Shown one piece after another: positions 44,626 through 61,639 of a stretch of 64,000 bases of DNA. The notes under the pieces are model-generated. The model saw only the letters and a program-made list of their open reading frames with translations. It made no database searches and was not told the origin of the DNA. Location: positions 512,001 through 576,000 of the forward strand of contig CAVUZH010000013.1 of assembly GCA_963745835.1 (NCBI GenBank), written 5' to 3'. A program made the translations under genes and the position numbers. This DNA is from an uncultured delta proteobacterium. Lineage in GTDB: Bacteria; Desulfobacterota; Binatia; UBA9968. Every line of letters starts with the position of its first letter. The first letter of the stretch is position 1.

Positions 44626-44819
44626 ACTTTTTAGGTTATGCCGCCTGCCTCGGTGGGTAATCTCGAATGATTCGTCCAAACTCAAATCAGGATCGCGCTA
44701 TCGCATTGAACGCGCTGAAACCGACTTAAGTCGCGTCTTCGCGCAAACTTCACCAACCAACTCTACGTCTCCGCCGCTAAAACTAAGCAACCAATCCTGT
44801 GGCCGAATTTGTCACCCAG

Positions 44820-46293: not shown

Positions 46294-46604
46294 TGAAGCG
46301 CGGGGAAGTTAGATGGTATGTGTTTTCCAGACCCGACAAGAAACGGCCAGTGCTCATTCTAACGAGAGACTCGGCGTTGGAGTTTCTCGGAGAAGTGACC
46401 GTCGCCCCTATTACAACCGTGATTCGCGATATTCCGTCGGAGGGCTTGTTGACCAAGATGGACGGAATGCCGAGGGACTGCGCCGTAAACTTTGATCATC
46501 TTCAAACCGTTTCTAAAGGAAAGATCGGTTCGCTCATTGCGACTTTAAGCTCGAGCAAGATGCAACAAATGCGGTCAGGCTTGCTCTTTGCGCTTGGCTT
46601 CTGA
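46293..46604 (+). CDS. mazF: PemK/MazF family toxin
   Basis: TGATG coupling; MKRGEVRW, KKRPVLILTR, VTVAPITT, D.LQTV.K. Confidence 0.9.
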   Translation: MKRGEVRWYVFSRPDKKRPVLILTRDSALEFLGEVTVAPITTVIRDIPSEGLLTKMDGMPRDCAVNFDHLQTVSKGKIGSLIATLSSSKMQQMRSGLLFALGF

Positions 46605-46621
46605 ATTTCAGTTGCCCCGTT

Positions 46622-46674
46622 GCTCGGCGGATTTCGCGATCTATCAGCTGCTCAGCCGCAATGTTCTCGACCCC
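46622..46674 (+). repeat. SBP-gene-derived repeat copy C0 (internal fragment)
   Basis: 52/53 identical to 59440-59492. Confidence 0.9.
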
Positions 46675-46944
46675 TTCCTTCCAAAGAAAGTTTTCGAGAT
46701 GCACCGACTTCTGAGTCGCTTGAGTTCCCTCCAACAGCACGTCCAAAAGAAGCGCCGTTCTCCAGGACTTCGACGGAATTGCCAGGGGACGGATGTGCTG
46801 AGCGTCAGTCCGGCGAGCGAGGGAATCAGCTCATCGATCGGCGAACTACATTCAATGTGCAGCTTGGGATCACGGTGACGTCGAATCGACCAAATGACAA
46901 TCGATAGCAGCAATACCAGGCAAAGAAATGCCACCACTATTCAT
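46671..46944 (-). pseudogene. Frameshifted duplicate of the 5' end of cls
   Basis: Collinear with 44168-44447 (LSIVIWSI.RHRDPKL.IECSSPI.ELIPSLAGLTL); indels; fused to C0 at CCCC. Confidence 0.85.
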
Positions 46945-47000
46945 CGAGATTTTACGCCATTCAGTCACTATAGAGAATGGACCCTTATCCCCTCTGATTC

Positions 47001-48317
47001 TTATCGATGCGAAGCCGCAATCTGATTGAGCCGCGATTGAATCTCGCGCTCCGGTAACCAGCGCCCACGCACCATCACGCCGGACCGGCGCGCGATATTG
47101 TCGATGTCCTCGAGGGGATTGGCATCGAGTAGGATCAGATCGGCGCGCTTCCCCACTTCTATCGTTCCAAAACTATCTTTCTCTTTGAGATATAGACCGA
47201 CATTGTAGGTTCCCGACCTGAGGATGTCGTACGGCTTCATCCCCGCATCCGCCATCCGTTTCATTTCGCGGTGAATCGAAAATCCCGGGACGCTGAAGCG
47301 CTGCGGCGCGTCGCTGCCCAACAGGATTTTCACGCCGCTATCGTGTAGCGCTTTGAGCAGGCGCATACGGTTCTGGATCACGGTGCGCGCTACGTCAGGC
47401 TTGAATTCGGAGTTCTTGAGGAGATTCTCCTGAGCGCTTGTCCACTGCTGGATCTGCTGCGGCGGCATGTATTTCAGCTCCGGGTAAGCACGCAGGGTGG
47501 CCAGATCTGCGGTTCCTCGGAGTGTTTCCCACAGAGCCATGGTTGGCACGACCCAAACGCCCGCCTCGCGCGACAGCTTGGCGATCTCTTGAAGCTTGGC
47601 GTCGGGCATGGGGCCCTTTTCTCCCTGCAGAAATTCGATATAGCCGTCGAGATGATCGAAGGTTTCCTGTCCGCTCTGGATCGCATGAAGGAGCCCGACA
47701 TCGGCCGGCACGTGGCCCGCAAAGCTTATTCCCACTTCCTTTGCGGTTCTCGCCATCGCGTCGTAATGATCCCGCGCCAGACCCGTAAGGACTTTCAGGA
47801 GGTCCCATCCTTCGCCCTTCTGTTGCCGGACAGTTTGTATCGCCTCTTCGGCAGACTTGATCGTCTTTCCACTGAAGGGAGGTCCAGCGAGATAAAGATT
47901 CGGCGCCATTAATTCGCCTCGCTTGGCTCTCTCTCGAAGATCGAGTTGCCCTGGCGCGCCCTGCATTCCTCGGACAGTTGTAACGCCATTGGCGATGTAC
48001 AGGAACAAGACCGCCTCGGTAAATTCCCGAGACTGAAGGGGTGAAGGAATATGTCCATGCATTTCGCCTAGGCCCGGCATTAGATATTTGCCGCGACCGT
48101 CGAGCGACAACGCTTTCTCCGGTACCTTGGTGTTTCCCGCTGGCCCCACAGCACTGATTCGGCCATCACGGATAACAACAGTCTGATTGTTTAGCAGCCC
48201 CTCCCGGTCCATTGGGACAACGTTGACGCCGATAAACGCAAGATCTTGGGCCGAGGATGGTTCGAGAGAAACGAAAAGCATCAAAGCCACACCAACGAGA
48301 CACAAACTCGGTTTCAT
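47001..48317 (-). CDS. Secreted amidohydrolase family protein
   Basis: Signal peptide; DGRGKYLMPGLGEMHGH, NGVTTVR, GSDAP, G.IEVGKRADLILL. Confidence 0.85.
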   Translation of the reverse strand: MKPSLCLVGVALMLFVSLEPSSAQDLAFIGVNVVPMDREGLLNNQTVVIRDGRISAVGPAGNTKVPEKALSLDGRGKYLMPGLGEMHGHIPSPLQSREFTEAVLFLYIANGVTTVRGMQGAPGQLDLRERAKRGELMAPNLYLAGPPFSGKTIKSAEEAIQTVRQQKGEGWDLLKVLTGLARDHYDAMARTAKEVGISFAGHVPADVGLLHAIQSGQETFDHLDGYIEFLQGEKGPMPDAKLQEIAKLSREAGVWVVPTMALWETLRGTADLATLRAYPELKYMPPQQIQQWTSAQENLLKNSEFKPDVARTVIQNRMRLLKALHDSGVKILLGSDAPQRFSVPGFSIHREMKRMADAGMKPYDILRSGTYNVGLYLKEKDSFGTIEVGKRADLILLDANPLEDIDNIARRSGVMVRGRWLPEREIQSRLNQIAASHR

Positions 48318-48416
48318 GGGCCCCTCCGTTGAAACGCCTGCTTGAACGTACCATATATCATCACTGTCGTCCCGGGATACCCGGGGGACGCGGCATCTCG
48401 TTCTTGCGATCAGAAA

Positions 48417-48572
48417 ATGGAGGTGGCCGGCATGCTCGGTACAGCATCAGGAAAGAACTACGGCAGTCGGTTTTTGACCGTAGTGTTTACCGTTCGTGCG
48501 AACCGGATTGGTGTGATCAGCGCGCGTCCGATGAGCAGAAGCGAGAAGAAAGTATATGAAAAAGAAAATTAA
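48417..48572 (+). pseudogene. BrnT (DUF497) toxin C-terminal remnant
   Basis: R.LTVVFTVR..RI.VISARPMS..EKKVYE; conserved N-terminus not found. Confidence 0.65.
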
Positions 48573-48618
48573 ACCGGTGCCGAAGTTCAGAAACGAACAG
48601 CACGAGCGGGACTTTTGA
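48556..48618 (+). pseudogene. BrnA-type antitoxin, truncated
   Basis: MKKKIKPVPKFRNEQHERDF then TGA where the PKF..E..E..FW motif expects Trp; overlaps brnT end. Confidence 0.6.
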
Positions 48619-48657
48619 ATGCGAGGCAAGCTATGACTCGCAGGCGGCTTCCTCGGT

Positions 48658-48687
48658 TTGACGATTAATCCATTACCCCGGTAATCT
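48658..48687 (+). promoter_or_regulatory. Promoter/operator of abrB-vapC (probably leaderless)
   Basis: TTGACG-18 nt-TAATCT, ATG 5 nt later; palindrome attacc-cc-ggtaat 48672-48685. Confidence 0.55.
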
Positions 48688-48692
48688 AAGTT

Positions 48693-48956
48693 ATGGCATT
48701 AGCGCAATCAAAAGTTACGGCCCAGGGACAGATTTCTGTTCCGGCGAAAGTGCGACGAAAACTCGGTATCGGCCCAGGCTCGGTGCTGGAATGGGACGAA
48801 GAAGGTGACGTCGTGGTCGTGCGCAAAGCCGGCCGGTATACATCGGAAGACATTCATCGCGCGATCTTTCCGCGAGGGACACCGGCTTCGAAGAAGCTAG
48901 AAGACTTCGACAAATGCGTGCGGCGCTATATGAAGAAAAAACATGCGCGCCGTTGA
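48693..48956 (+). CDS. AbrB/MazE/SpoVT family antitoxin
   Basis: SKVTAQGQISVPAKVRRKLGI.PG..L.W. Confidence 0.9.
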   Translation: MALAQSKVTAQGQISVPAKVRRKLGIGPGSVLEWDEEGDVVVVRKAGRYTSEDIHRAIFPRGTPASKKLEDFDKCVRRYMKKKHARR

Positions 48957-49322
48957 CACCAATGTCTTGGTCCGTCTGGTCACGCGCGACGATCGGAAGC
49001 AGGTCGCCGCCGCGGAATCATTCGTGAGTAAGGGGCGTGGGTGGCCACCTTGGTTCTCACGGAAGCGACATGGGTTCTTACAGCTGTGTACGACCTGAGT
49101 CACGCGGAGATTCCGACGGCCATCGAAATGCTTTTGCGTCATCGGGATCTTATCATTCAAGAGTCCGATAGCGTGGCCGCAGCACTCGAGCAGTATCGCA
49201 AGCGTCCGGCGTTGGGGTTCTCCGATTGTTTGATCCTAGAAACAGCGCGGAAAGTCGGCCATCTTCCGTTGGCAACCTTTGACCGGAATCTCTCGAAGCT
49301 CGATGGAGCCGAAGGACTGTAG
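48943..49322 (+). pseudogene. vapC: VapC PIN toxin, frameshifted
   Basis: MRAVDTNVLVRL from ATG 48943; one base missing in the G run at about 49031-49035; other frame continues VL.EATWVL...FSDCLI...LATFD. Confidence 0.85.
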
Positions 49323-49456
49323 CGCTGCGCAACGCGAATTTGTTTTTGCAAAATCAGCGCGAGATTAATGCTGACTTATCAGAGTGTTGAAAAAGCGGTC
49401 GTCGACTGGACGTTTGCCGCAAGAGCCCGAGGATAATCATCAGAAGTAAAAACTGC
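49322..49456 (+). repeat. SBP-gene-derived repeat copy C1 (internally deleted)
   Basis: 49322-49372 matches 59739-59790; 49397-49452 matches 59959-60012. Confidence 0.85.
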
Positions 49457-49567
49457 CTCCAAAGCAAAACGTCAAAAGCTACAATTGACCGAAGGCCGGT
49501 CGTGCACTCAACGAAAGCTCACCATTCCAGGAAGTGGACGCCGCTGTGGTGAGAGTTCATGGTGGTG

Positions 49568-49861
49568 TTAGGCGGCCAATTTCACCGCGACTGAGACGCC
49601 AGCCTTTGCGCACAGGCCGACGAGGTAGTCCAGAGATAGCTTGTCAACCTTGTTGCGCGCGATCTCGGAGATGCGGGGCTGGACCACGCCAAGGCGCTTG
49701 GCGGCTTCCACCTGGGAAATTGCCTCACGGTCCATCCACTTACGGAGAGCTTCGGCCAGCTGGCAACGCAGGAGCATCACAGCCGCCTCGTGCGGTGGAA
49801 AGCCGAGATCAAGGAATACATTGTTTGCGCGCTTTACTTGCCGTGCTCGTTTCTTCTTCAT
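49568..49861 (-). CDS. XRE/HigA-type HTH antitoxin
   Basis: NVFLDLGF, SQ.EAAKRLGV.QPRISEI.R.K...LSLDYL. Confidence 0.9.
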   Translation of the reverse strand: MKKKRARQVKRANNVFLDLGFPPHEAAVMLLRCQLAEALRKWMDREAISQVEAAKRLGVVQPRISEIARNKVDKLSLDYLVGLCAKAGVSVAVKLAA

Positions 49862-50178
49862 GAGTGCCTCCCGGTTAACTTGTAACGCTCTGCTGCCAAC
49901 TTAATGTCCGCCTGGGACGTCTTTCGGGTCTTCTTCTGAAAAGCGTGCAAGACATAAACCGCTTCTTCGAATTTGGCCACGTACACGACGCGAAACACCG
50001 GCGCCACCTCGTATGCGAATCTCATACGCTCCAGATCCAACGGTCGGAAGCGGCTTAAAGTCTGCTGGTTCACGCCCGACTTGCACCATAAACAACTCGT
50101 ATCCGGCTTGTCGACGCGCCAATCGGGAAAGGTCGCTAAGTCGCGACGAGCTGTCCCGAGAAAGCGGATCGGTTTCAT
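49858..50178 (-). pseudogene. RelE/HigB (Gp49-like) toxin with two compensating frameshifts
   Basis: N- and C-termini in one frame (MKPIRFLG; FRVVYVAKFEEAVYVLHAFQKKT); conserved middle (AGYEL..VQ.G..P.DFKP...VG.G.YEIRIR) in another frame. Confidence 0.8.
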
Positions 50179-50187
50179 TACAAATGA

Positions 50188-50216
50188 ATTATACGATTAT
50201 TCGTATATGCTTGCAA
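50188..50216 (-). promoter_or_regulatory. Sigma-70 promoter with palindromic operator for the higBA-like pair
   Basis: TTGCAA-17 nt-TATAAT on minus strand; tatacga-ttat-tcgtata palindrome 50190-50207. Confidence 0.75.
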
Positions 50217-50326
50217 TCGCCCCACGAACCCCGAAGACAGCAACCGCCGATCTGAAAAGCTTGGTCGATAGATTATCGATATGATTTAGGAATTGGAACC
50301 GTCGGGGATTATCAACCAGCCATATA

Positions 50327-50405
50327 CGTGGTCGAAGAATGGATTTCCGTGGGAGCGTTTAGAGCGAAAGAAACAATCACCGCCAAGCCGCAACAGGTAA
50401 TCGAT
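50327..50405 (+). repeat. SBP-gene-derived repeat copy C2
   Basis: cgtggtcgaagaatggatttccgtggga...tcaccgccaagccgcaacag matches 59890-59967. Confidence 0.9.
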
Positions 50406-50493
50406 CGAACTCAGACGGCATTGCGCCCGCTGCGGCGCGTTGGTATTTTGTTTCCGGCTCGGACGGCGATAAGCTGTCCTGACAGGAGAAGGG

Positions 50494-51330
50494 ATGTCGA
50501 TCTTTAAGACCACCGGTCTTGTCGCCGGCCATTACGAGTGCCGCTCCCTGGCGGAAACTCTGCCGGTCTTCACCGATCTATTGGCCATGGAGGTCGTCGA
50601 GCGGACGGCGAGCATAGCCATACTCAAGCACCCCAACACGGAGTGGCGCCTGATCGTACATGAAGGGGGACCCGACGCGCCGGAAAAGAGTTTCGACAAT
50701 CACTACGGCTTCCGCGTCGCCCACCATGGGGAGGTGGAAGCAGCCTGGAAACACCTCGAAGCCAACAAAGAGAAATACGGCCTCAGCAAGATCACTAAGC
50801 CGCAGAGCGCGCATTTCGCTTACTCGATCTACTTTCGCGAGCCCGGCGGCAACCACTTGGAAATCGAATATTACAATCCCGGCGGCGCGCAGCATGGCCG
50901 CGCCCACACCGCCGGCCATTGGAACAAGCCGCTCGCCGACGAGCGATTGTCCCAGCGCGGCTACCTGCCGCAAGCGTTCACTCACGGCACGCTGCAGTGC
51001 GACGACATCGAGCGCAGCCGGCAATTTTACACCGAGGTTCTCGGACTCGAGATCCTGGCGGGATTCAACAACGCCCAGTATATCAAGCACGCGGCGGCGC
51101 CCTGGTACATCGTCGTCTTGAAACGCAGCCCGCGGCAATATCTCGCGCCGGTAAACCGCTTCACTCTGCAAATGGATTCAGCCGCAGCAGTCGAGCAAGC
51201 GCACCGCGAATTCTCGATCAACGGCGCGACCGCCGGCATTACAGAACTCGGCAAGCTCGACGCCATTGACGGCAAAACCAGTTTTATCTTCAGCGACCCG
51301 GATAGGAACTGGTGGGAGCTAAACGCCTAA
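50494..51330 (+). CDS. VOC family protein, two domains
   Basis: HYGFRV, YFREPGGNHLEIE, THGTLQC, FSDPDRNWWEL; AGGAG RBS. Confidence 0.85.
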   Translation: MSIFKTTGLVAGHYECRSLAETLPVFTDLLAMEVVERTASIAILKHPNTEWRLIVHEGGPDAPEKSFDNHYGFRVAHHGEVEAAWKHLEANKEKYGLSKITKPQSAHFAYSIYFREPGGNHLEIEYYNPGGAQHGRAHTAGHWNKPLADERLSQRGYLPQAFTHGTLQCDDIERSRQFYTEVLGLEILAGFNNAQYIKHAAAPWYIVVLKRSPRQYLAPVNRFTLQMDSAAAVEQAHREFSINGATAGITELGKLDAIDGKTSFIFSDPDRNWWELNA

Positions 51331-52413
51331 TGAAAAACAAACACGGACTGCAAACCATCGTGTTTACTGTCTTTCTTCTGCTCGCGTGGTGGATCGTTTT
51401 GGCCCCCACGGCATTGGCCCAGACGCCATTCTATGAAGGAAAGAATCTTCTTCTTGTGAGCGGCACTGACGCGGGCGGTGCCGGCGATCTGCGCACGCGC
51501 GCAGTGATTCCGGTCTTGAAAAAACATATTCCCGGCCACCCCAGCCATCGTTATGCAGTACATGCCCGGCGCGGGCGGACGTAAGGCGGCCAATCACATG
51601 TACAAATCGGTTCGGCCTGATGGTTTGACGGTCGGCGCCATGATCACCGGCATGGTGCAGGGCACGATTTTCGGCGAACAAGACGTACTTTATGATCTCG
51701 ACAAGTTCATTTATCTCGGCTCCCATGCCCGCTATGCGCCCTATGCCTTTGTGACGCACAAGGCCGCGGGCTTCAACAGCCGGGAAACTTTGAGCGCGAC
51801 CCGCGGCGTGCGCATCGGCGCGCCGTCTGTCGGCCACAGCCTCTACACCATGGCCCGGCTGTTCGCCTACATGCTGGACATGAAAGAGCCGCGTTTGGTC
51901 ACCGGCTATACACCGCGGGAAATCGACTTTGCTTTAGAAAGGAACGAAATCGATGCGCGGGTGAGTATCCTGGACAGTTTGCTGACGCGCAATGCCCATT
52001 GGTTAGATAAAGATCTGGTGCATGTCCACGCGACCATGGATATCCCCAAGGGCTTCAAACACCCCGACCGCAGGCTCGCCAAACTCCCCGAGATCGAGGG
52101 TTTCGCCCGCTCAAACCAAGAACGCCGTCTCATCCAGCTTTTTCGCGGGGCGCGCGATACCGGTCAGCCTTTTGTGCTGCCGCCGGGCACGCCGGCGGAG
52201 CACGTTAAAATATTGCGGGAAGCCATGCGCAGAGTCTTCGCCGATCCGGAGTACAGCAAAGCCTACGAGAAACTCACTTCGGAGCCCGCTATGACGGTAA
52301 CCTGGGAGGAGTTCGAAACACAGCTGCGCGAGTTGCCGCGGGAAGCCGAGACCATCGATCTCTTCAAGCGGCTTTCCGGCCCGGCACCGCTGCCGGCCCG
52401 GCCGTCCCGGTAA
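51330..52413 (+). pseudogene. TctC/Bug-like tripartite tricarboxylate transporter binding protein, frameshifted
   Basis: Signal peptide and FYEGK...AGG.GD...KHIPGHP in one frame; MPGAGG..AAN.MY...PDGLT and LPPGTP in the next; shift near 51540. Confidence 0.8.
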
Positions 52414-52447
52414 CCACGCGCCGTTTACAACAAGAGTACTCTGATTC

Positions 52448-52645
52448 CGACCGCCGAGTGGTTCTATGCTCTCTAGCGCGAGCAGTTGAACCCCGATCTC
52501 GCGGTACCGGACTCGGCCGTCGAAGAATGGATTTCCGTGGGAACGTTTAGAGCAAAAGAAGATCACCGCCAAGCCGCAACAGGTCGTCGACTGGAAGTTT
52601 GCCGAAAGAGCCCGACGCTGATCAGTGAAATTAAAGAACTGCCCC
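52448..52645 (+). repeat. SBP-gene-derived repeat copy C3
   Basis: Collinear with 59815-60015 and 54698-54895. Confidence 0.9.
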
Positions 52646-52744
52646 CGAACGGACTTCGCACGATGATCGGTGTCGTGTAACAGATCGGCGGGCTTTTGGA
52701 CCGGGATTTATATCACGGCCTGGGTCCTCGCCTAGGGGTATTAC

Positions 52745-53179
52745 TCACTCTTTCCGCACCGTAATTTCGTAGTCGCCACGGGTCTTGGATGCAAGCACTG
52801 AGACCATTATGTAGTACAGCTCGCCAGGACGGCTCTCAAAAGCAAGGGTGAGAGGTTGGTCCTCAGGATTTATGCCCGGGAGCAGGGTCACGCCCTCGCG
52901 CACCTGAGCAACCCTCTTCTCATTCTGATCATAAACGTCCACTGCCCCTTGAAAGCCGGCTTTAGAGCGCTTGCGTACAATAACCCGTGTTTTGGGGCTG
53001 GACGCGGTGAATTGGAAGAAATGCCGCTCTTGGCCCGGCACGAGCGAACCGCTCAGCGTTGCCCCTTCAGCGATTGGTTTTGCAGTAGTAATGCTCGTGT
53101 TAGAACCTGGCAGCGCTGGTGAGTCTGCGGCGGGGGACTGCGCCGGGCTCATGGAGCCAATAAGCGCCCCATTCAGCAT
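52745..53179 (-). CDS. Stand-alone PPC-like beta-domain protein, paralog of the TIR protein ectodomain
   Basis: 52745-53099 vs 53385-53739: about 27 mismatches in 355 bp (hand count), both frames open; true start may lie upstream. Confidence 0.65.
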   Translation of the reverse strand: MLNGALIGSMSPAQSPAADSPALPGSNTSITTAKPIAEGATLSGSLVPGQERHFFQFTASSPKTRVIVRKRSKAGFQGAVDVYDQNEKRVAQVREGVTLLPGINPEDQPLTLAFESRPGELYYIMVSVLASKTRGDYEITVRKE

Positions 53180-53384
53180 CGCAATGGCCCAGACACATCG
53201 TCGAACACGTTGGGTGACATCCGTATAGCTAGGCGTATGTACCTCCGATCGACAATTTGTGGGTAATGCTAATCCACGTCATGCTATTGCAAGAACGCCC
53301 TACACGAACAGCGTTTTTCTTCAGAGCGTTACAAAGTTGCGCTTACCAGCCAGCTTTCAATGCATAGGACTACCTCATTATCAC

Positions 53385-54515
53385 TTACTCTTCCCGCACC
53401 GTAATTTCGTAATCGCCACGTGTCTTGGACGCAAGCACTGAGACCATTATGTAGTACAGCTCGCCAGGACGGCTCTCAAAAGCAACGGTGAGAGGTTGGT
53501 CCTGAGGACTTATGCCCGAAAGCAGGGACACGCCCTCCCGCGCCTGAGCAACCCTCTTCTCATTCTGATCATAAACGTCCACCGCTCCTTGAAAGCCGTC
53601 TTTAGAGCGCTTGCGTACAATAACCTTTATTTTGGGGCGCGCCGCGGTGAATTGGAAGAAATGTCGCTCTTGGCCTGGCACGAGCGAATCGCTCAGCGTT
53701 GTCCCTTCAGCGATTGGTTTTGCAGTAGTAATGCTTGTGCCTGACTCGGAAGAGGGAGCACGACGAAACATAAAGAATACGAAGGCTGAAACCAAAACAA
53801 TGGTAATAATACTTCCACCAACCCATAAACGAGTTTTTGAGAAGGAGAGGCTAGGAGAAGGACCTGGCGAGTCGTGATGCGTTGTAGTATGAGCGCCTTG
53901 GTCGCGTCGCTTTTGCCGCTCTGGCTGTTGCGCTCTTGCTGCTTCCTCCTGTGCGCGACTTTTTTCTTCTTCGATGCGCCTTCGGATCTCGTCGTCCGGT
54001 TTCAATCTGGTCGCTTCCTCAGCCCGCTGTCGTTCCTGTTGGCGGAGACGCTCTTCGTCTACCTTGCGGCGCTCTTCGGCTTCCCCAAGGCGTTGCTCTT
54101 CTGCTACGGTCGCCCCCGTAGAGCTCAGTCTAAGAATCGTATAGATGTCCTCGACAAGCCTTCGAAACTCTGAGAAGTCTTTTGAGCCATCCCAATTAAA
54201 CAAACTTGGTGTATGAAGTTCTTCAAATCTAAAAGGTAGTTCCACTTGTTGGATCGTAACGGGGACGAGCTTCTTGCGTTTCAATGCATGCGTTGCCTCG
54301 TCTTTTACGTATAGCGACTGCACGGAACGTTTGGACCACAACACAATGACGCACTTCGCTTCGTTTAATGCCTTCTCAATCACGTCATTAAACCGTTCAC
54401 CTGCCCGGAGCTTCGGGTCCCACCAGACAGTCCAGCCTTCACTTTCAAGTGCATTTGCAAGTTGTCTTGCTGTGGCTTGATCTTCTCGGTTATAGCTGAT
54501 GAATATGTCGCTCAT
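53385..54515 (-). CDS. TIR domain - coiled coil - TM - PPC-like ectodomain protein
   Basis: DIFISY.RED, VWWD..L..G, CVIVLWS..SV.S.YV.DEA (catalytic Glu position); E/R/Q-rich linker; TM LWVGGSIITIVLVSAFVFFMF; beta-rich C-domain ending GDYEITV. Confidence 0.85.
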   Translation of the reverse strand: MSDIFISYNREDQATARQLANALESEGWTVWWDPKLRAGERFNDVIEKALNEAKCVIVLWSKRSVQSLYVKDEATHALKRKKLVPVTIQQVELPFRFEELHTPSLFNWDGSKDFSEFRRLVEDIYTILRLSSTGATVAEEQRLGEAEERRKVDEERLRQQERQRAEEATRLKPDDEIRRRIEEEKSRAQEEAARAQQPERQKRRDQGAHTTTHHDSPGPSPSLSFSKTRLWVGGSIITIVLVSAFVFFMFRRAPSSESGTSITTAKPIAEGTTLSDSLVPGQERHFFQFTAARPKIKVIVRKRSKDGFQGAVDVYDQNEKRVAQAREGVSLLSGISPQDQPLTVAFESRPGELYYIMVSVLASKTRGDYEITVREE

Positions 54516-54678
54516 TGACGGTACACAGGATTGAGAACAAAAACGCCAAAGACTCGTAGGGTGGTTAATATGGTGGGCTGTCCCGGCGTGTCTGCCGATT
54601 TCCCGTCTTATACTTCGCCGAGAGAGAAAAAATCAACGAGTAAGGCGTCTCCCTAAAACCGATCACGCAGATCGACAA

Positions 54679-54895
54679 TGGAAAAACTCTTGAAGCTCGA
54701 CCGCCGAGCGGTTCTATGCTCTCTACCGCGAGCAATTTAACCTCGATGTCACGGTACCCGACTCCGTCGTCGACGAATGGATTGCGGTGGGAACGTTTAG
54801 AGCAAAAGAAAAAATCACCGCCAGGCGCAACAGGCCGTCGATTGGACGTTGCCGAAAAAGCGCGCCGCTGATCATCAAAGTAAAGAACCGGCCCC
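54679..54895 (+). repeat. SBP-gene-derived repeat copy C4
   Basis: Collinear with 59797-60015; shares an 8-nt deletion with C3. Confidence 0.9.
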
Positions 54896-55005
54896 GAGGC
54901 ACAACGTCACAAAGCAACTTGACCCGAAGCAGTCGCTCTTAGGCTTTGTGATACCACTTATGATCGACAATAGGTCAATGACTCATGCCCGACCCCTGCC
55001 ACTGA

Positions 55006-56073
55006 TTAGCCTTTGCGGCCGATTTCTCGGAGCAGCTTCTCCCATTGTTCCATCGATTGTTCGTACTGGGCCATCGACATGCCCGCTTCGGGGTACCAAA
55101 GTTTGTAGGGCGTAGGCTTCAGAGGACCGCCATAGTTCAGGTCGCCGAGGATCTTTGCCCCTTCCGGGCTGAGAAGAAAATCGGCCATCAGCACCGCGGC
55201 ATGCGGCCGCGCCGCCTGCGCCGTGATCGCTACGCCGCCGGTGTTGGTCGGCACGACATCCATCGGTACCCAATCCACCGGCGCTCCTTTGCCTTTCACC
55301 TCGATGGCATGGTCGCGGAAGATCGTCGGCGCCAAGGGAACTTCACCGGAAACCACCAGGTCCGCCATCGCTCGACCGGATACGGAGTGCAGAACTACCT
55401 CCTGCGCCTTGAGTTTCTTCACGAACTCTTCACCTTTAAGCTTGAGCATCGCGCCGATCGCTCTCACTCCGGTTTCGTTGGAAACGAAGCCGATTTTCCC
55501 CTTGAGCTCGGGTTTCAAAAGATCGTCGTACTTTTTTGGTACGGCGGACGTCGGGATAAGCGTCGTGTTGTAGCCGACGCCGCTGTATGTCTCGCGATCG
55601 ACCGCCCAGTAGACGAGTCCTCGGCCGGCGTCTTCTTTTGTGTTGGCAGGATATTTTTTCAAATGGGGCGAGGTGTAGGCGGCAAGCAGTTTATTTTCGC
55701 GCAGATAAGTCAGCGGCGGCACCGTCGTTTCCAAAACGTCGACGAGGATCTGCTTGGCCTGGGCCTCGGCCGTGATCCGGGTCATGATATCGGTGCTCGT
55801 ACCCCGATAGGTCTCGACTTTGATCCCCGGATACTTTGCTTCGAAGCCGTTGGCGAGATCTTTGTATGAGCTCCCCGCCAGCGAGGTGTACCAAACGACC
55901 TTGCCTTCAGCTCTGGCGCCCGCGACAAGCCGCTGCTCGCGATCGGCGCCGGCGTAAGCCGCGAGCTCGGCCGTGGAGACCGGTTTCTTGCTTTGTGCCC
56001 ACGCGCCGGCAATCCACTGATGCGTGAACAAAAAAACTGCAATGGACAATATTTTCAGTCGGGTAAATCCCAT
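55006..56073 (-). CDS. ABC transporter substrate-binding protein (Fe3+/AfuA-like)
   Basis: Signal peptide; GARAEGKVVWYTSL, GYNT...P..YDDLL.P.LKG, GAPVDW. Confidence 0.85.
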   Translation of the reverse strand: MGFTRLKILSIAVFLFTHQWIAGAWAQSKKPVSTAELAAYAGADREQRLVAGARAEGKVVWYTSLAGSSYKDLANGFEAKYPGIKVETYRGTSTDIMTRITAEAQAKQILVDVLETTVPPLTYLRENKLLAAYTSPHLKKYPANTKEDAGRGLVYWAVDRETYSGVGYNTTLIPTSAVPKKYDDLLKPELKGKIGFVSNETGVRAIGAMLKLKGEEFVKKLKAQEVVLHSVSGRAMADLVVSGEVPLAPTIFRDHAIEVKGKGAPVDWVPMDVVPTNTGGVAITAQAARPHAAVLMADFLLSPEGAKILGDLNYGGPLKPTPYKLWYPEAGMSMAQYEQSMEQWEKLLREIGRKG

Positions 56074-56214
56074 AACCCCCCCCGGGGGTAGCCGATGGAC
56101 GAGGCGAGCGGCAAATCTTTGGCCGTTCGCGGTTAAAAATCTTCGAATAGCATAAGCGTCAGATGCAGGTCAACGCGACCGGCGTTTGTTCGATCACTGA
56201 GCGCTAACGACTGG

Positions 56215-56245
56215 GTTGACACAGTCAACGAAACTCATTTAGAGT
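56215..56245 (+). promoter_or_regulatory. Candidate sigma-70 promoter with palindromic operator
   Basis: TTGACA-18 nt-TAGAGT; GTTGAC-aca-GTCAAC palindrome overlaps the -35. Confidence 0.5.
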
Positions 56246-56278
56246 CGATCATGTTTAGATTACAATCGAGGAGGTCGT

Positions 56279-57142
56279 ATGATCGTCGAGAACCATGCCA
56301 AGGGACAAATCTCGTGGCCCAATAAAAATCGAGTTGCGGTCGCCATCACTTTCGATTTTCAGGGTGGCGAGCCGGTGCGGCCGGGACCGAACGGAAAGTT
56401 GAACAACGAGGATTACGCGGAAGGGGAATATGGACCCAAGACGGGCATATGGCGGATCCTAAGCATGCTCGACGAAGTCAACGTCAAGACCACGTTTCTG
56501 ACGTGCGGCGGGATCGCGGAAAGATACCCCGACGCGATGAAAGCGATCGTCGAGCGCGGACATGAGGTCGCGGGACACGGCTACCACCATGAAATTGCGC
56601 GCGACCTGACGCGACAAGAAGAAAAGGATTGCATCCGGCGGACCACGGACATGCTCATGAAGCGAACCGGAAAGCCTCCGATCGGTTGGCGGACATGCAC
56701 GCAAAGTAACGATACGGTAGAACTGCTGATGGAAGAAGGATACGTGTGGAACAGCAATTCGTTCGCGGACGATCTCCCGTTCGTGTGGGAAAACGGCGAG
56801 TCGCGGCTGGTCGAGCTGCCGCGCCAGCCGTTTGGCGACGGCCGGCTCTATGGACATCAGAACCGGGCCGGCGATCATCCGGACAATGCCTTGCGCTTGT
56901 GGCAACGCTTCTTTAACGACCTTTACGCCGAATCGGCGACCGCACCGATGTTCACGACCTTCCAACTGCATCCGTATGTGTCGAGCCGGCTCGGTAGAAC
57001 CAGCGCGCTCAAAGAAATGATCGAATACATGAAGGGCCACGAAGGCGTGTGGTTCGCCAGCGGCATAGAGATCGCCGAATGGTGGCTCGAGCAAAACTTT
57101 TCAGAGAAACCCGCGCCGCTGCGCATCGCCGCGGTTTCCTAA
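56279..57142 (+). CDS. Polysaccharide deacetylase family protein (PuuE-like)
   Basis: WP...RVAV..TFD, EYG.KTGIWRIL, HEVAGHGY.H, GWR, LHP; GAGGAGG RBS. Confidence 0.85.
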   Translation: MIVENHAKGQISWPNKNRVAVAITFDFQGGEPVRPGPNGKLNNEDYAEGEYGPKTGIWRILSMLDEVNVKTTFLTCGGIAERYPDAMKAIVERGHEVAGHGYHHEIARDLTRQEEKDCIRRTTDMLMKRTGKPPIGWRTCTQSNDTVELLMEEGYVWNSNSFADDLPFVWENGESRLVELPRQPFGDGRLYGHQNRAGDHPDNALRLWQRFFNDLYAESATAPMFTTFQLHPYVSSRLGRTSALKEMIEYMKGHEGVWFASGIEIAEWWLEQNFSEKPAPLRIAAVS

Positions 57143-57157
57143 TTAGAACACCCCATC

Positions 57158-57203
57158 CGCGGATGCCGAGCTGAAATTTCTCTGCGTCAAGTCGGCATCC
57201 GCG
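57158..57203. terminator. Stem-loop downstream of the deacetylase gene
   Basis: cgcggatgccga...tcggcatccgcg perfect 12-bp stem; no U-tract. Confidence 0.45.
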
Positions 57204-57467
57204 TGGTCCCATCTCACCCCTCGCCCTCTCGCGGAAATGTCTTTTCCGCCGACCGCTGAATCTGAAATGTCACAGACGTGACTCCTAAGGCCGTTCCGTT
57301 ATGAGACAGCGCCGAGTTCTAATCAGCGTCGTAACCGACGACGCCACCCGCCCAGCGGTTCTGCCGATCATAGCTTGGCAGCCGCTGAGCGAAAGAACAG
57401 CATCAGGACGAAAGTCTGGAACTGTCATACTTTTACTTTGAGCTCCATTAGCCAGGTAGAGCCGTCG

Positions 57468-57914
57468 TTAGCTGGCTTTTCGTACTTCTTTGTTTTTAGC
57501 CGCTTCAAGCTCGCGACCTAACTGATCAAGAGCCTCAGCATTCATGAGTTTTCGTATCTTGGGAAACATTTTTCCCTCTTCCTCTTCTTCCGCATGATGC
57601 TCTACGTTTTCCATTAACACTTTCAGTTTAGGTTCAAACTTCTCGCTATCTGCGGTCAGATTTTCCATCTCTCGGAGGAGAGTCTTTACCTGCTTGTGCT
57701 CCTCGAGAGATTCAAGCACCATATCTTTTAACTCTTCGTTTTTTGCTACGGCCGGATAGAAAACCGTCTCCTCAATATGCGTATGAGTTTCTAGTTCCGT
57801 TTTAATCTTTTCAAAAAGTTGCAACTGCTGTTTCTTGTTTTCGCTTCCTTCTGCCTTTTCGAATAGTTCTTTCACCGTCTTATGGTCTGTCTTAAGAAGT
57901 TCTAAAGCATCCAT
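57468..57914 (-). CDS. Hemerythrin/HHE cation-binding domain protein
   Basis: MDALELLKTDH, HTHIEE.VFYP, EEH, H..EEE..MFP; GGAGG RBS. Confidence 0.9.
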   Translation of the reverse strand: MDALELLKTDHKTVKELFEKAEGSENKKQQLQLFEKIKTELETHTHIEETVFYPAVAKNEELKDMVLESLEEHKQVKTLLREMENLTADSEKFEPKLKVLMENVEHHAEEEEEGKMFPKIRKLMNAEALDQLGRELEAAKNKEVRKAS

Positions 57915-57972
57915 TTACTTTCCTCCAAAAAAAGGTCGTTATTAATATTAGATACGAACTAAGTCCTAAAGG

Positions 57973-58004
57973 TGCGAGTCCGCCCATCTAGCTGCGGACT
58001 CGCA
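57973..58004 (-). terminator. Hairpin (probable terminator) after the stress membrane protein gene
   Basis: tgcgagtccgc...gcggactcgca 11-bp stem. Confidence 0.55.
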
Positions 58005-58015
58005 ACAAAGCCCGC

Positions 58016-58555
58016 CTAAACGCGGCTTTCTTCCTGCTTGGGAACGCCTTTCTCTTCGCTGTACGAGATGTCGTGGGCGCCGGCACGTTCAAAAATATCC
58101 TTTGCGCGCTTTACTTCATCGCTATCTTCCGAGTGCACTGAAATCAGGATGTTGCCCTCTTTGATTTTTCCCTCGTATCGCTTGGCCTCATACTCAGGAA
58201 TGCCCATGCCCACGAGCGCTCCGGTTAGCCCGCCGACGGCGGCGCCTATACCCGCACCGGCCAGAGCGGCCATGATCGGTCCGGCAGCTATAAACGGGCC
58301 GACGCCAGGAATGGCCAAGGCCCCAATGCCCACCAGCCATCCCAAAGCTCCTCCTAAGACTCCCCCGGTGCCTGCTCCTGTAGCGGCCCCCTCCGGTGCC
58401 TTAGTGTGCTGTTCGTGAGCAAAATCCTTCGTTCCCGATTTGTCAGGGAACAGGACCGAGATATCATTGTTGGAAAAGCCCGCAGCCTTCAGCTCTTGGA
58501 CTATCCTTTCGGCTTGGCTTTCATTATCACTTAAACAAAAAACTGATTTTGACAT
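58016..58555 (-). CDS. General stress membrane protein (YflT/DUF3341-like glycine zipper)
   Basis: L.AAGF...DISVL, GA.TG...GG.LG.L.G.G.LAIPG.GP..AAGP, GIPEYEAKRYE. Confidence 0.8.
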   Translation of the reverse strand: MSKSVFCLSDNESQAERIVQELKAAGFSNNDISVLFPDKSGTKDFAHEQHTKAPEGAATGAGTGGVLGGALGWLVGIGALAIPGVGPFIAAGPIMAALAGAGIGAAVGGLTGALVGMGIPEYEAKRYEGKIKEGNILISVHSEDSDEVKRAKDIFERAGAHDISYSEEKGVPKQEESRV

Positions 58556-58572
58556 ACTTTTCTCCTTTAAAT

Positions 58573-58968
58573 TTAGTTTGCGATCTCCAATTGGTTATCG
58601 ACACTTTTTACACCAGCAATCTGCTGCGCTTTGGCACCGATATTAGTTTTCTCTTGCTCACTCTGCACCGGCCCACGTAGCGTCACTGTGCCATCATTCG
58701 TGATGATCTTTACGTTCTTGCCATTCGTGGAGACGGAATCGTCCGCTGTGACAGCCTGCCGGACGTTTTGTGAAATCGTCCGGTCCGCCTCACTCTCAGA
58801 TTGATCGCCCGGGGTCTTTGTCGCATCGTTACGATCTCGGACGTTACGGCCACTATTATCTGCCGCTATGTCGGCGGTTTGACTCGGCTGGTCATTCTTC
58901 GACACCTCGTTCTTGCTACACCCGACTACTAGAAACGCTAGAACAAAACCTAAAGCACTTGTTCTCAT
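58573..58968 (-). CDS. BON domain lipoprotein
   Basis: Lipobox VVGC; DN...N.RDR, NVKIIT.DG.VTLRGPV, GVKSVDNQL; AAGGAGG RBS. Confidence 0.9.
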   Translation of the reverse strand: MRTSALGFVLAFLVVGCSKNEVSKNDQPSQTADIAADNSGRNVRDRNDATKTPGDQSESEADRTISQNVRQAVTADDSVSTNGKNVKIITNDGTVTLRGPVQSEQEKTNIGAKAQQIAGVKSVDNQLEIAN

Positions 58969-59344
58969 AAAACCTCCTTCGTTTAAGATTTTTGTTTCTC
59001 CGAAATTGCTGATTTCCGAAAATCGTCCTTAGTAAAACCACTGCCTAACACCCCTCGATTTGGGAGTCTGTAGATCGAGCGGTTTGTCACTCCTTGCTGA
59101 CAACTTCTGCCCATACCTGGAAGGAGAATGGGGTGGACGCAAGTCGAAACGCTTGCGCGAATCGGCAGTATCATCTTTTCTAAGCGTCAGCGAGATTCGT
59201 CAACCCTGGTCAGGAGGGGTTGTGGTTCGAGCAGGTAGTGTAAGTCTTACGAGATGGAGTGCCTACGTGCTCCTTCCCTTTAAGCAGTTAATCCGCTTTG
59301 TCAATGGTTAGATTCGTTCTTTCTTCTTCGCCCGAGCAGATTCC

Positions 59345-60015
59345 CGTACAAATCCAGCGCTATGCGATCATCTCGCGTCCCGACATCGCCAGCGTCAAGG
59401 ATCTCAAAGGGAAAAGGCTGGCGATCAACACCTTCGGCAGCTCGGCGGATTTCGCGATCTATCAGCTGCTCAGCCGCAATGGTCTCGACCCCAACAAAGA
59501 TGTCACGCTGCTATCGATCCCCGGCAGCCCGGACGCCCGTTTCGCCGCGCTGATCGGAGGCTCGGTCGAGGCCACCGTGGTGAACAGCCCGTTCGAATAT
59601 CGCGCCGAGCAAGAAGGCTTTAAGGTATTGCTCTCGATCAAAGAGACCGCCGAGTTCGTCAAAATCCCCATCAACGGGCTGAGCACGTGCCAGCGAAAAA
59701 TTGACAGAGAGCCCGATGAATTCGTGCGCATGCTGCGGGCGCTGCGCAACGCCGATTTGTTTTTGCAAAATCAGCGCGAGATCAGTGCCGGGTTAGTGGA
59801 AAAACTCTGAAGCTCGACCGCTCAGTCGCGGAGCGGTTCTATGCTCTCTACCGCGAGCAGTTTGATCCCGATCTCACGGTACCCGACTCCGTGGTCGAAG
59901 AATGGATTTCCGTGGGAACATTTAGAGCAAAAGAAAAAATCACCGCCAAGCCGCAACAGTCATCGATTGGAGGTTTGCCGAAAAACCCCGACGCTGATCA
60001 TCAAAAGTAAAAAGC
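59345..60015 (+). pseudogene. 5'-truncated, frameshifted NitT/TauT SBP gene; longest copy (C5) of the repeat
   Basis: IASVKDLKGKRLAI..FGS..D, GLDPNKDV, RFAALIGG.V; no signal peptide; 1-nt deletions near 59807 and 59959; ancestral stop TGA 59995-59997. Confidence 0.85.
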
Positions 60016-60312
60016 CCTGACCACGGCTGAACCGAAAATTCCCTGCGCTGGAGGTTAACCGGCTAGTTTCATCGCTTCCGCGGCGCACTTTTAAACTTGC
60101 CTAACTCTAATACGACGTATTGGTCTTTTTTTGCATCGATACAGATCGCTTGGTCTAGGAGCGTCGGAGCGCGAGCTATCTCAGATCATCACGACTACCG
60201 AGCCGCATAGCCCGACGGTTGTTCACTTCCCAAGCAACTTGACAGTCTTTAACAGGTTTCGTTAGAAGGATCTCAATCACTGCTTCTCGTGTTTTTTCGT
60301 GGCAGGTTCATT

Positions 60313-61517: not shown

Positions 61518-61639
61518 TAATCGCCACGACTGGTCAAGCTGCCGGGAAACGTGAGTGCCGGTGAGTGGTCACGGCGAATACCTAGGAAAAAAACGCGGAC
61601 TGATCGACTATGGACCAGTGATGGGAGAGTTGAAGACCG

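What the first reader, a model, noticed from the sequence alone, without database searches (positions are those of the whole stretch)
46622..60015. Cassette-like array delimited by six direct repeats derived from a protein-coding gene
Seen: pieces of one NitT/TauT SBP gene recur in the same orientation at 46622-46674, 49322-49456, 50327-50405, 52448-52645, 54679-54895 and 59345-60015. Five cover the 3' end (consensus about EKLLKLDRSVAERFYALYREQFNPDLTVPDSVVEEWISVGTFRAKEKITAKPQQVVDWRFAEKARR*). Four run about 20-25 nt past the stop to a similar right boundary. Every copy is truncated or frameshifted. Each interval holds a self-contained module: amidohydrolase + TA pairs; higBA-like; VOC + TctC; TIR + ectodomain copy; SBP + deacetylase + stress genes. 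Copies hug the cargo: C1 starts at the vapC stop, C0 18 nt after mazF, C3 35 nt after tctC. No integrase, tRNA or canonical attC array is present. Inference: a gene-accretion platform using a coding-sequence-derived recombination anchor, either serial site-specific integration by a trans-acting recombinase or homology-anchored capture. I know of no description of this.
Basis: partly seen in the sequence, partly recalled or inferred. Interest (0 to 1): 0.85.

Follow-up and report, generated by a model that had tools for sequence, protein, structure and literature searches.

The report
Gene-tail relics flanking inserted gene modules
Seven decayed end-pieces of one transporter-binding-protein gene separate small blocks of accessory genes, and most likely mark places where foreign DNA was added by ordinary recombination rather than by a new kind of cassette machine.

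Summary
All six pieces lie at the stated places on the + strand. A seventh lies 56 kb downstream, outside the window. Nothing comparable occurs elsewhere in the 7.3 Mb genome except one intact 70% paralogue.

The pieces are 82-98% alike, carry indels and evolve at the local neutral rate. Both their left and right ends are staggered. No integrase, resolvase, tRNA, Rfam RNA or attC-like hairpin is present. Two same-genus genomes, three metagenome contigs and contigs from four public runs hold the same pieces. Some show a different module order, with breakpoints inside the pieces.

The same signature, an insert flanked by a diverged direct copy of part of the target gene, recurs in the window for a phospholipase D gene (a relative keeps the uninserted form), for vapB, and as a tandem partial copy of the TIR gene.

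Genome-wide, 13 intact genes have a displaced 3' piece nearby, 11 of them downstream. Differences between gene and piece concentrate at third codon positions (97:56:203).

Best reading: serial additive integration by single-crossover recombination of circularised homeologous DNA, followed by piece-to-piece recombination. This process is known from experiment. A decayed site-specific accretion array is the main rival. I rate it a new variant of a known kind, of moderate interest.

The parts
46622..46674 (+). C0: 53-nt internal piece of the SBP gene (-557..-505), fused to the PLD fragment
   Evidence: 98% to 59440-59492. The junction with the PLD fragment shares CCCC (alignment).
49322..49494 (+). 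C1: SBP tail in two pieces (49322-49371 and 49397-49494). It starts at the last base of the vapC stop.
   Evidence: G002's vapBC homology also ends at 49323.
50327..50405 (+). C2: SBP piece -107..-30, without the stop codon
   Evidence: 92% to C5 and C6. Spanned with both flanks by public contigs X1 record 2 and X9 record 25.
52448..52649 (+). C3: SBP tail -174..+28
   Evidence: Its right junction and the ectodomain gene behind it recur behind the long copy in G004:C441.
54679..54927 (+). C4: SBP tail -200..+59, with an 8-nt deletion
   Evidence: Spanned with both flanks by public contig X9 record 27.
59298..60022 (+). C5: longest copy, NMT1-family SBP pseudogene. It lacks codons 1-85 and is frameshifted.
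   Evidence: Pfam NMT1_2/NMT1. tblastn residues 86-262 and 261-312 lie in two frames. The same 5' truncation is seen in G004 and metagenome contig L039.
44168..44433 (-). PLD gene segment that is duplicated (left copy, inside ORF 43188-44579)
   Evidence: 86% direct repeat with 46671-46938. Pfam PLDc_2.
46671..46938 (-). PLD fragment (right copy) that keeps the native 5' continuation towards the amidohydrolase
   Evidence: G004:C445 has one PLD copy contiguous with the amidohydrolase, without 44450-46670. Three-way sites. Public-contig joint 44333->46844 in run X6.
44580..46621 (.). Inserted module 0: unknown lipoprotein-like ORF and mazEF
   Evidence: Pfam RHH_1 and PemK_toxin. Absent from G004:C445.
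47001..49322 (.). Module 1: amidohydrolase, BrnT remnant, vapB, vapC (two frames)
   Evidence: Pfam; ORFs.
49568..50178 (-). Module 2: higA-like HTH and Gp49/HigB-like toxin
   Evidence: Pfam HTH_37 and Gp49. No match in the 5 same-genus genomes searched.
50494..52413 (+). Module 3: VOC/glyoxalase and a TctC-like SBP (weak Pfam hit, two overlapping frames)
   Evidence: Pfam. 96% match on G004:C618, which stops at 52437.
52745..54515 (-). Module 4: TIR-transmembrane-ectodomain gene, plus a 5'-truncated copy of its 3' ectodomain part
   Evidence: Pfam TIR_2. 361-nt direct repeat 52739-53099 / 53379-53739 at 92%.
55006..57142 (.). Module 5a: SBP_bac_8-type binding protein and polysaccharide deacetylase. 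Absent between tail and stress genes in G004 and L039.
   Evidence: Pfam.
57327..59297 (-). Module 5b: hemerythrin, YflT-like and BON genes. It travels together with the left end of C5.
   Evidence: Pfam. Collinear with G004:C441 1273-3894 and L039 1150-3517.
36471..36583 (+). 115-nt fragment of the vapB 5' region, 12 kb upstream of vapB
   Evidence: 77% to 48672-48785. G002:C46 has the MFS gene (window 32364-33545) directly next to vapBC.
61102..61519 (+). 3' part of a multicopy IS200-like (Y1_Tnp) element. The full copy lies 1.8 kb behind C6.
   Evidence: 97-98% to C13 window-equivalent 119465-119882, C5 and C20 copies. Pfam Y1_Tnp on the full copy.

Best explanation
The array is a fossil record of serial additive DNA acquisition at one spot of a flexible chromosome region. 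Each time, incoming DNA from a related bacterium carried its own copy of part of a resident gene: here the last 100-700 nt of an NMT1-family SBP gene plus up to 60 nt behind it.

Proposed steps:
1. The incoming DNA became circular, either by illegitimate end-joining or by recombination between two tails in the donor.
2. It entered by one homologous (homeologous) crossover inside that gene part.
3. This leaves the cargo flanked by two direct, non-identical copies of the gene part, whose ends depend on what each incoming molecule carried.
4. Repetition stacks modules between tails.
5. Later, recombination between tails deletes, excises and re-inserts modules, which gives different orders in different strains.

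The SBP gene itself is dead and the tails now drift neutrally.

Shown: the repeats, their confinement to the locus, the staggered ends, the lack of recombinases, the strain-to-strain rearrangements, the uninserted PLD allele, and the genome-wide tail pattern with a third-codon-position bias.

Inferred: circular intermediates, RecA dependence, and the order of events.
For: 1. Seven direct copies lie within 70 kb and none elsewhere. All are in one orientation, as crossover insertion requires.

2. Both ends are staggered. Left ends are at -107 to -699. Right ends are at -30, +23, +28, +59 and +60. In relatives the right ends are at +35, +36, +47, +54 and +60.

3. The PLD case in the same window.
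- A 2.5-kb insert is flanked by a 268-nt direct repeat at 86%.
- G004:C445 carries the uninserted form, and so does one public contig.
- The single G004 copy matches the left copy at the first 12 informative sites, then is mixed (11 left, 12 right). It continues into the right copy's flank.
- The divergent part of the right copy shares variants with the more distant G005 allele.
- The fragment junction has 4-nt microhomology.

4. Cargo junctions travel with the cargo while tails are exchanged.
- The stress module plus the C5 left end is kept in G004 and L039.
- The C3 right junction plus the ectodomain gene follows the long copy in G004.

5. Genome-wide.
- 32 pairs of intact gene and nearby fragment; 31 are direct.
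- 17 reach the gene's 3' end, 14 of them downstream.
- That is 13 parent genes against 1 with a 5' fragment, once an IS is set aside.

6. In 16 such pairs the repeat ends -63 to +69 nt from the stop. Differences fall 97:56:203 on codon positions 1:2:3 (chi-square p 9e-22). So the two copies diverged as working alleles in different lineages, not by decay in place.

7. These parents are unrelated genes. No boundary k-mer is shared beyond shuffles. No tyrosine or serine recombinase is near, except one 8 kb from one locus.

8. Experimental precedent (passages read in PMC3240628). In E. coli, linear DNA with one-sided homology to the lacZ end mostly recircularised and integrated by a RecA-dependent single crossover. 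56 of 60 Lac- clones showed the PCR product diagnostic of a partial lacZ duplication; sequencing of 14 of them gave sizes of 109-950 bp.
Against: - In a simple serial model the most complete gene copy should sit at the upstream end. Here the longest copy (C5) is sixth of seven, so extra rearrangements must be assumed.
- The SBP tails form a star-like set with mostly private variants: 79 singleton against 11 shared variant classes. Their third-position excess is only modest (26:21:43, p 0.012). That fits a burst from one source sequence as well as it fits import of distinct alleles.
- The genome-wide excess of 3' over 5' fragments is not predicted by random crossover insertion unless selection is invoked.
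- The PLD informative-site pattern is only half clean.
- No circular form or empty site for any SBP module was demonstrated. The public-run joints lie inside repeats, come from short contigs, and C6 was not in the laid stretch, so several can be mis-laid C6-like pieces.
- G004's order rests on one 4.4-kb short contig whose junctions coincide with repeats. L039 independently supports only the tail-stress-C5 part.
Confidence: 0.5

Rival explanations
1. Decayed site-specific accretion array. Integrative elements with a tyrosine, serine or other recombinase repeatedly integrated into the 3' part of the SBP gene, each bringing a replacement gene end. The elements then lost their integration genes and became cis-mobilizable-element-like modules. 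Later deletions blurred the att boundaries.
For: - This is the classical source of direct repeats of a gene's 3' end bounding tandem islands, including integrase-less ones (passages in PMC3146451 and PMC5704250).
- The genome-wide bias to displaced 3' ends lying downstream, with repeats ending near the stop codon and a third-position bias, is what element-borne replacement ends predict.
- In the Ldh_2 array on contig C16 the three tails start within about 45 nt of each other, and two end within 7 nt of the stop.
- C2's right end (-30) and C1b's left end (-39) bracket the same 10 nt, the only segment common to all six 3' copies.
Against: - There is no Phage_integrase or Resolvase hit in or near the array, nor near 12 of the 13 other loci.
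- Tail left ends spread over about 600 nt.
- There is no intact target gene.
- At least 13 unrelated target genes would need many different integrase specificities, but the genome has only 13 Phage_integrase and 2 Resolvase hits in all.
- No motif is shared at the boundaries.
- The cargo modules are 0.6-4.4 kb, small for integrative elements.
Confidence: 0.25
2. Tandem amplification of a segment containing the SBP gene, followed by independent deletion of most of each unit and insertion of unrelated genes between the surviving tails.
For: - Direct orientation and confinement to one locus.
- Star-like relationship of the copies with mostly private changes.
- Paralogous divergence (11-16%) is only slightly above the orthologous G000-G004 divergence (8-12%), which suggests a burst.
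Against: - No two intervals share any cargo sequence beyond the tails.
- Every unit would have had to lose the 5' part and keep the 3' part.
- It does not explain the genome-wide third-codon-position signature at other loci, nor the PLD insert with a foreign-looking fragment.
Confidence: 0.1
3. A dedicated, so far undescribed cassette system. A trans-acting recombinase encoded elsewhere, for example one of the abundant IS200-like Y1 or IS110 enzymes of this genome, uses gene tails as portable recombination sites.
For: - An IS200-like element lies 1.1-1.8 kb behind C5 and C6, and next to tail arrays on contigs C20 and C5.
- An IS110 abuts the tail in G002 and another lies at the window's end.
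- Several tail arrays exist in one genome.
- Junctions hug stop codons.
Against: - There is no hairpin (z-scores 0.0 to 1.4), no shared motif and no common core.
- The IS copies sit outside the modules, and such elements simply collect in flexible regions.
Confidence: 0.1
4. Assembly artefact: strain variants wrongly strung together in a metagenome-assembled genome.
For: - The genome is a MAG with 9.3% contamination.
- Single-base differences from public contigs occur inside genes.
Against: - Truncated tails with the same junctions occur in independent assemblies: G004:C441, G002:C371 and the three metagenome contigs L038, L039 and L040.
- Contigs of four runs from four studies cover all 30 bins and span C2 and C4 with both flanks.
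- Copies differ by 8-18%, so they would not collapse in an assembly graph.
Confidence: 0.03

Closest known systems
Insertion-duplication by single crossover of a circular or recircularised DNA (Campbell-type integration), as measured in E. coli conjugation (PMC3240628; passages read)
   Same: - The inserted DNA is flanked by a direct partial duplication of the homologous gene end.
- The duplication size varies (109-950 bp there, about 80-700 nt here).
- No site-specific recombinase is needed.
   Different: - Here the events are natural, serial (seven copies) and homeologous (82-92% identity).
- They were followed by tail-to-tail rearrangement.
- RecA dependence and circular intermediates are inferred, not shown.
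Tandem accretion of genomic islands and cis-mobilizable elements at the 3' end of a target gene. Examples: ssrA islands of Dehalococcoides (PMC3146451) and ICE/IME/CIME tandems (PMC5704250). Passages read.
   Same: - An array of modules in one orientation, each bounded by a direct repeat of the target gene's end.
- Some modules lack integration genes.
- The number and order of modules vary between strains.
   Different: - Those repeats are short (for example 20 bp), share one insertion point, start from an intact target gene, and many islands carry an integrase module.
- Here the repeats are long, diverged and staggered at both ends, the target gene is dead, and no integrase is present.
Integron cassette arrays, including integrase-less attC clusters (recalled from general knowledge; no paper read here)
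   Same: - Small modules, toxin-antitoxin and VOC-type cargo.
- Repeats hug the end of the preceding gene.
- Similar repeats recur within one array.
   Different: - No IntI.
- The repeats are coding-derived and do not fold as hairpins.
- Cargo lies on both strands and is often multi-gene.
Tycheposon islands with partial tRNA repeats (bioRxiv 10.1101/2020.12.28.424599; only the search listing and the start of the abstract were seen; details recalled)
   Same: Flexible islands built by repeated integration at a gene's end, leaving partial gene copies.
   Different: - The targets are tRNA genes and the elements carry recombinases.
- Not examined further here.

Membership tests
Site-specific tandem accretion array (ICE/IME/CIME type) | Intact target gene at the upstream end of the array | tested here: not met
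   The longest copy lacks codons 1-85 and is frameshifted. No copy above 70% identity elsewhere in the genome. The only intact relative is a 356-aa paralogue on contig C3.
Site-specific tandem accretion array (ICE/IME/CIME type) | All repeats share one crossover core at the same position | tested here: inconclusive
   Ends are staggered on both sides. Only 10 nt (-39..-30) are common to the six 3' copies, bracketed by C2's right end and C1b's left end. This could be a core or chance.
Site-specific tandem accretion array (ICE/IME/CIME type) | Tyrosine or serine recombinase in or beside at least some modules | tested here: not met
   The nearest PF00589 hit is at C13:754684, about 180 kb away. 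PF00239 hits occur only on contig C24. Pfam scans of the ORFs I picked in 37574-64000, plus two further upstream (29 proteins in three calls), found none.
Site-specific tandem accretion array (ICE/IME/CIME type) | Excision as circles, empty sites | tested here: inconclusive
   Public contigs show joints between tails: 49349->59768 in 2 runs, 52636/52641->60123/60119 in 2 runs, 59887->52553 in 2 runs.
Integron / attC cluster | IntI-type integrase next to the array | tested here: not met
Integron / attC cluster | attC sites that fold as imperfect hairpins in single-stranded DNA | tested here: not met
   Six folds of tail ends on both strands gave z-scores 0.02 to 1.41, no better than shuffles. 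The repeats align to SBP coding sequence.
Integron / attC cluster | Co-oriented, mostly single promoterless ORF cassettes | tested here: not met
   Cargo lies on both strands and holds 2-5 genes per interval.
Insertion-duplication by single homologous crossover | Insert flanked by direct copies of a segment that is single-copy in the uninserted form | tested here: met
   PLD: two copies in G000, one in G004:C445, without the 2.5-kb insert. For the SBP tails no uninserted form was found. The tails themselves occur in only 3 of the 8 genomes of the genus (G000, G002, G004).
Insertion-duplication by single homologous crossover | The two copies are reciprocal donor/recipient hybrids | tested here: inconclusive
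   PLD: the first 12 informative sites match the left copy, then 11 left and 12 right. G004's long tail is C3-like at its last 7 informative sites and mixed before.
Insertion-duplication by single homologous crossover | RecA dependence, circular donor | not testable with these tools
   Needs genetics or long reads.
Silent-cassette gene-conversion system (pilS/vls type; recalled) | One intact expression copy fed by truncated silent copies | tested here: not met
   No intact copy exists, and the copies carry indels and drift at the neutral rate.

The most novel reading that the evidence does not exclude
In this lineage gene tails act as portable homology anchors of an integrase-free cassette system. 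Any module flanked by two tails can pop out as a circle by recombination between them and re-enter at any other tail, in the same or a related cell. A dead gene's end then works like an attC site, and this mode (displaced 3' ends at 13 or more loci) is the main route of additive gene gain in the genome. Alternatively, an unrecognised trans-acting recombinase does the same job.
Probability: 0.15. Interest if true: 0.75.

Novelty: new variant of a known kind. Interest (0 to 1): 0.45.

Why it matters
How bacteria add genes, rather than swap them, without dedicated mobile-element machinery is poorly documented in natural genomes.

This locus offers a readable record of such additions in an uncultured soil lineage. 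The only named genome record with the same motif is titled Candidatus Binatia. The record consists of:
- seven displaced gene ends at one locus;
- a neighbouring insert whose uninserted allele survives in a relative;
- a genome-wide excess of displaced 3' gene ends whose differences look like those between working alleles.

If general, scanning genomes for displaced gene tails with a third-codon-position bias would be a simple way to date and count additive transfers between relatives. It could also find integration hotspots that integrase-based island finders miss.

If instead it is a decayed site-specific array, it is an ordinary island graveyard with an unusual protein-gene target.

Tried and rejected
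- RNA or structure explanations. Rfam found nothing in 40000-64000 at E<=0.1, nor in a second array. There are no tRNAs in the window. Single-strand DNA folds of tail ends were no better than shuffles.
- A shared recognition motif at the repeat boundaries of 14 parent/tail pairs (the two with the fragment upstream were left out) plus the six 3' SBP copies C1-C6. The top k-mers (k 8-10) were shared by 2-3 loci, as in shuffles.
- Selection on the tails. Orthologous tails are 88-92% alike. Nearby third codon positions are 86-96% alike, intergenic DNA 88-96%, and the C5 pseudogene 87-90%. So there is no sign of constraint.
- Foreign base composition. GC is 0.52-0.57 in the array against 0.51-0.62 in the rest of the window, so composition is uninformative.
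- A link between the IS200-like element and tail arrays. It was noted at three places, but the element lies outside the modules and I could not test the link.
- The other large direct-repeat array, C13:681041-696041. It turned out to be five copies of a Y1_Tnp (IS200-like) gene or pseudogene, not gene tails.
- Public-run joints. I could not use them as proof of excision or empty sites. Parts without cover are not interpreted.
- G005 has the PLD and relA-like genes but no tails. Its contigs are short and gave no clean empty site for the SBP array.
- Supplementary files of the papers were not consulted. They may hold maps that bear on how close the known accretion arrays are.
- I make no claim that the phenomenon is not in print. 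Only three literature searches were run and none was specific to this lineage.

Full report
**What is there**

The window is G000:C13:512001-576000 of a 7.28-Mb, 25-contig metagenome-assembled genome, 97% complete and 9.3% contaminated.

A seventh, C6, lies at C13:628722-629052, which is 56 kb downstream of C5 and outside the window.

The gene is an NMT1/NitT-TauT-type substrate-binding protein (Pfam NMT1_2 and NMT1 on the longest copy).

A genome-wide search with the longest copy gave 9 hits:
- the seven copies;
- one intact 356-aa paralogue at 70% identity on contig C3;
- one weak 44-nt hit.

No tRNA, Rfam family, tyrosine recombinase or serine recombinase lies in or near the array.

**Anatomy of the copies**

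Counting from the last base of the stop codon, the copies cover:

| Copy | Extent |
|---|---|
| C0 | -557..-505 |
| C1 | -258..-209, then 25 unrelated nt, then -39..+60 |
| C2 | -107..-30 |
| C3 | -174..+28 |
| C4 | -200..+59 |
| C5 | -699..+23 |
| C6 | -270..+60 |

- Both ends are staggered. The only stretch common to the six 3' copies is -39..-30.
- The copies are 82-94% alike. The exception is C0, which is 98% like C5 over 53 nt.
- All carry indels of 1-17 nt relative to the best-preserved copy.
- Single-stranded folds of the tail ends are no more stable than shuffled sequence.

**Relatives**

Of 41 genomes searched, including G000 itself, fragments above 80% identity occur only in G000 and in two same-genus genomes.
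- G002 has one tail, wedged between an HTH-bearing putative transposase gene (only helix-turn-helix Pfam domains were found) and an IS110.
- G004 has two tails on one 4.4-kb contig.
- Intact 325-326-aa orthologues at 74-76% identity exist in two other genera, each next to a gene that I read by eye, without a family scan, as a dienelactone-hydrolase-like gene. They have no extra tails.

A degenerate 29-mer from the tail found three metagenome contigs and one genome record, titled Candidatus Binatia.

G004:C441 reads, in order:
- a relA-like gene, which in G000 lies 4.6 kb upstream of C6;
- a C6-type tail;
- the hemerythrin/YflT/BON module;
- the long C5-type copy, which runs into the C3-type right junction;
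- the ectodomain gene.

Metagenome contig L039 independently shows tail - 545 nt - stress module - C5. L038 shows another context again: an SBP_bac gene, the tail, and a BrnT gene. Its tail keeps an open 67-codon frame and is almost the consensus.

So a module keeps its own junctions, but the partner on the other side of the tail changes.

Near-identical sequence is held by 19 of the 24 listed public runs, from 7 studies. Contigs of four runs from four studies cover all 30 bins and span C2 and C4 with both flanks. They also show joints between different tails, which I treat as weak evidence only.

**The same footprint for other genes in the window**

- **PLD.** A 268-nt part of the PLD gene is repeated at 86% identity around a 2.5-kb insert holding a lipoprotein-like ORF, mazEF and C0.
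  - G004:C445 carries PLD contiguous with the amidohydrolase and lacks the insert. One public contig agrees.
  - In a three-way comparison, the single G004 copy follows the left copy for the first 12 informative sites, then is mixed. It continues into the flank of the right copy.
  - The strongly divergent part of the right copy shares variants with the more distant G005 allele.
  - The C0/PLD junction has a 4-nt microhomology.
- **vapB.** A 115-nt vapB 5' fragment sits 12 kb upstream of vapB. G002 has the MFS gene (window 32364-33545) and vapBC adjacent.
- **TIR gene.** The TIR gene's 3' ectodomain part is repeated 280 nt downstream at 92% identity.

**Genome-wide**

A self-BLAST of the genome found 174 low-copy local repeat pairs, 170 of them direct.

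I then restricted the set to an intact ORF of at least 200 aa with a partner fragment outside any long ORF. That left 32 pairs:
- 31 are direct;
- 17 reach the parent's 3' end, 14 of them downstream;
- 2 are at the 5' end;
- 13 are internal.

Counting parents and leaving out an IS, 13 genes have a 3' tail copy and 1 has a 5' copy.

Three further arrays resemble the finding:
- an Ldh_2 gene on contig C16 with three tails;
- an unknown 455-aa gene on C24 with four;
- an amidohydrolase-like tail present five times on C20.

In 16 parent/tail pairs:
- the repeat ends between 63 nt before and 69 nt after the stop;
- differences fall 97:56:203 on codon positions 1, 2 and 3 (p 9e-22).

That is the mark of two alleles that diverged while functional, which points to import from related lineages rather than decay of a local duplicate.

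For the SBP tails the bias is weaker (26:21:43, p 0.012) and most variants are private. This fits tails that have long been dead. Their divergence between G000 and G004 equals the local neutral level.

**Mechanism**

These features argue against a dedicated site-specific system:
- long, diverged repeats in one orientation;
- staggered ends;
- no recombinase;
- no shared motif;
- many unrelated target genes.

They fit integration of circular or recircularised DNA by a single homologous crossover. That process duplicates whatever part of the gene the incoming molecule carried. It has been measured: in E. coli, linear DNA with homology to the lacZ end mostly recircularised and integrated by a RecA-dependent single crossover. 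Fifty-six of 60 Lac- clones gave the PCR product diagnostic of a partial lacZ duplication, and sequencing of 14 of them gave sizes of 109-950 bp (passages in PMC3240628).

Once two tails flank a module, recombination between them can excise it as a circle and re-insert it at another tail. This would explain the permuted order in G004 and L039.

Weak points of this reading:
- The longest copy is not at the upstream end.
- The tails form a star-like set.
- The 3' excess needs either selection or a site-specific origin.

A decayed accretion array of integrative elements therefore remains a serious rival. Such arrays, including integrase-less members, are well described (passages in PMC3146451 and PMC5704250).

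**Verdict**

The interpretation as an accretion structure anchored on a coding-derived repeat is reasonable, and the homology-based variant is favoured. It is not unprecedented, and the array is a drifting relic.

Novelty: a new variant of a known kind. Interest: moderate. It comes mostly from the genome-wide displaced-tail signature, which deserves a test in other genomes.

Noticed in passing
window 41615-41761: A MITE-like element of about 150 nt. It gave about 60 similar hits across the genome at 72-87% identity; a second copy at window-equivalent 105401-105550 gave well over 100. It is absent from the orthologous site in G004:C445, where 41611 joins 41765.
   Followed up: partly
window 61058-61519; full copy at G000:C13:630821-631885: An IS200-like element encoding a 322-aa Y1_Tnp protein with a C-terminal HTH-like part. 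Five or six copies at 93-99% identity lie on contigs C13, C5, C20 and C18, three of them beside arrays of direct repeats.
   Followed up: partly
G000:C13:681041-696041 (L045): Five direct copies, four of about 740 nt and one of about 360 nt (92-97% alike), of a second Y1_Tnp gene or pseudogene. They are spaced 3.0-4.6 kb apart, with 1-3 ordinary genes (GAPDH-like, TctC-type SBPs) between them.
   Followed up: partly
G000:C16:91571-103046; C24:320449-326801; C20:48067-73936: Three more arrays of 3' gene-tail copies in direct orientation. Two start from an intact parent gene: Ldh_2, and an unknown 455-aa protein. Cargo includes a YefM/RelE-like pair that I read by eye and did not scan.
   Followed up: partly
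window 49029, 51545, 54822, 59807: Public-run contigs differ from the assembly by single-base indels inside vapC, the TctC-like gene, C4 and C5. Some frameshifts of the MAG may therefore be assembly errors or strain differences.
   Followed up: no
whole contig C13: Very large expansion of NMT1-type binding-protein paralogues: dozens of tblastn hits at 22-35% identity on contig C13 alone with one orthologue as query.
   Followed up: no
window 43188-44579 (-): The PLD ORF starts with about 44 residues encoded by the inserted DNA. The G004 orthologue aligns only from residue 43, so the G000 gene may use a new start or be inactive.
   Followed up: no
G005:C165 (L043) 4963-5182: A second, more divergent PLD 5' fragment (72-75% identity) lies 3.4 kb from the PLD gene of G005. 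PLD fragments therefore recur in another species of the genus.
   Followed up: no
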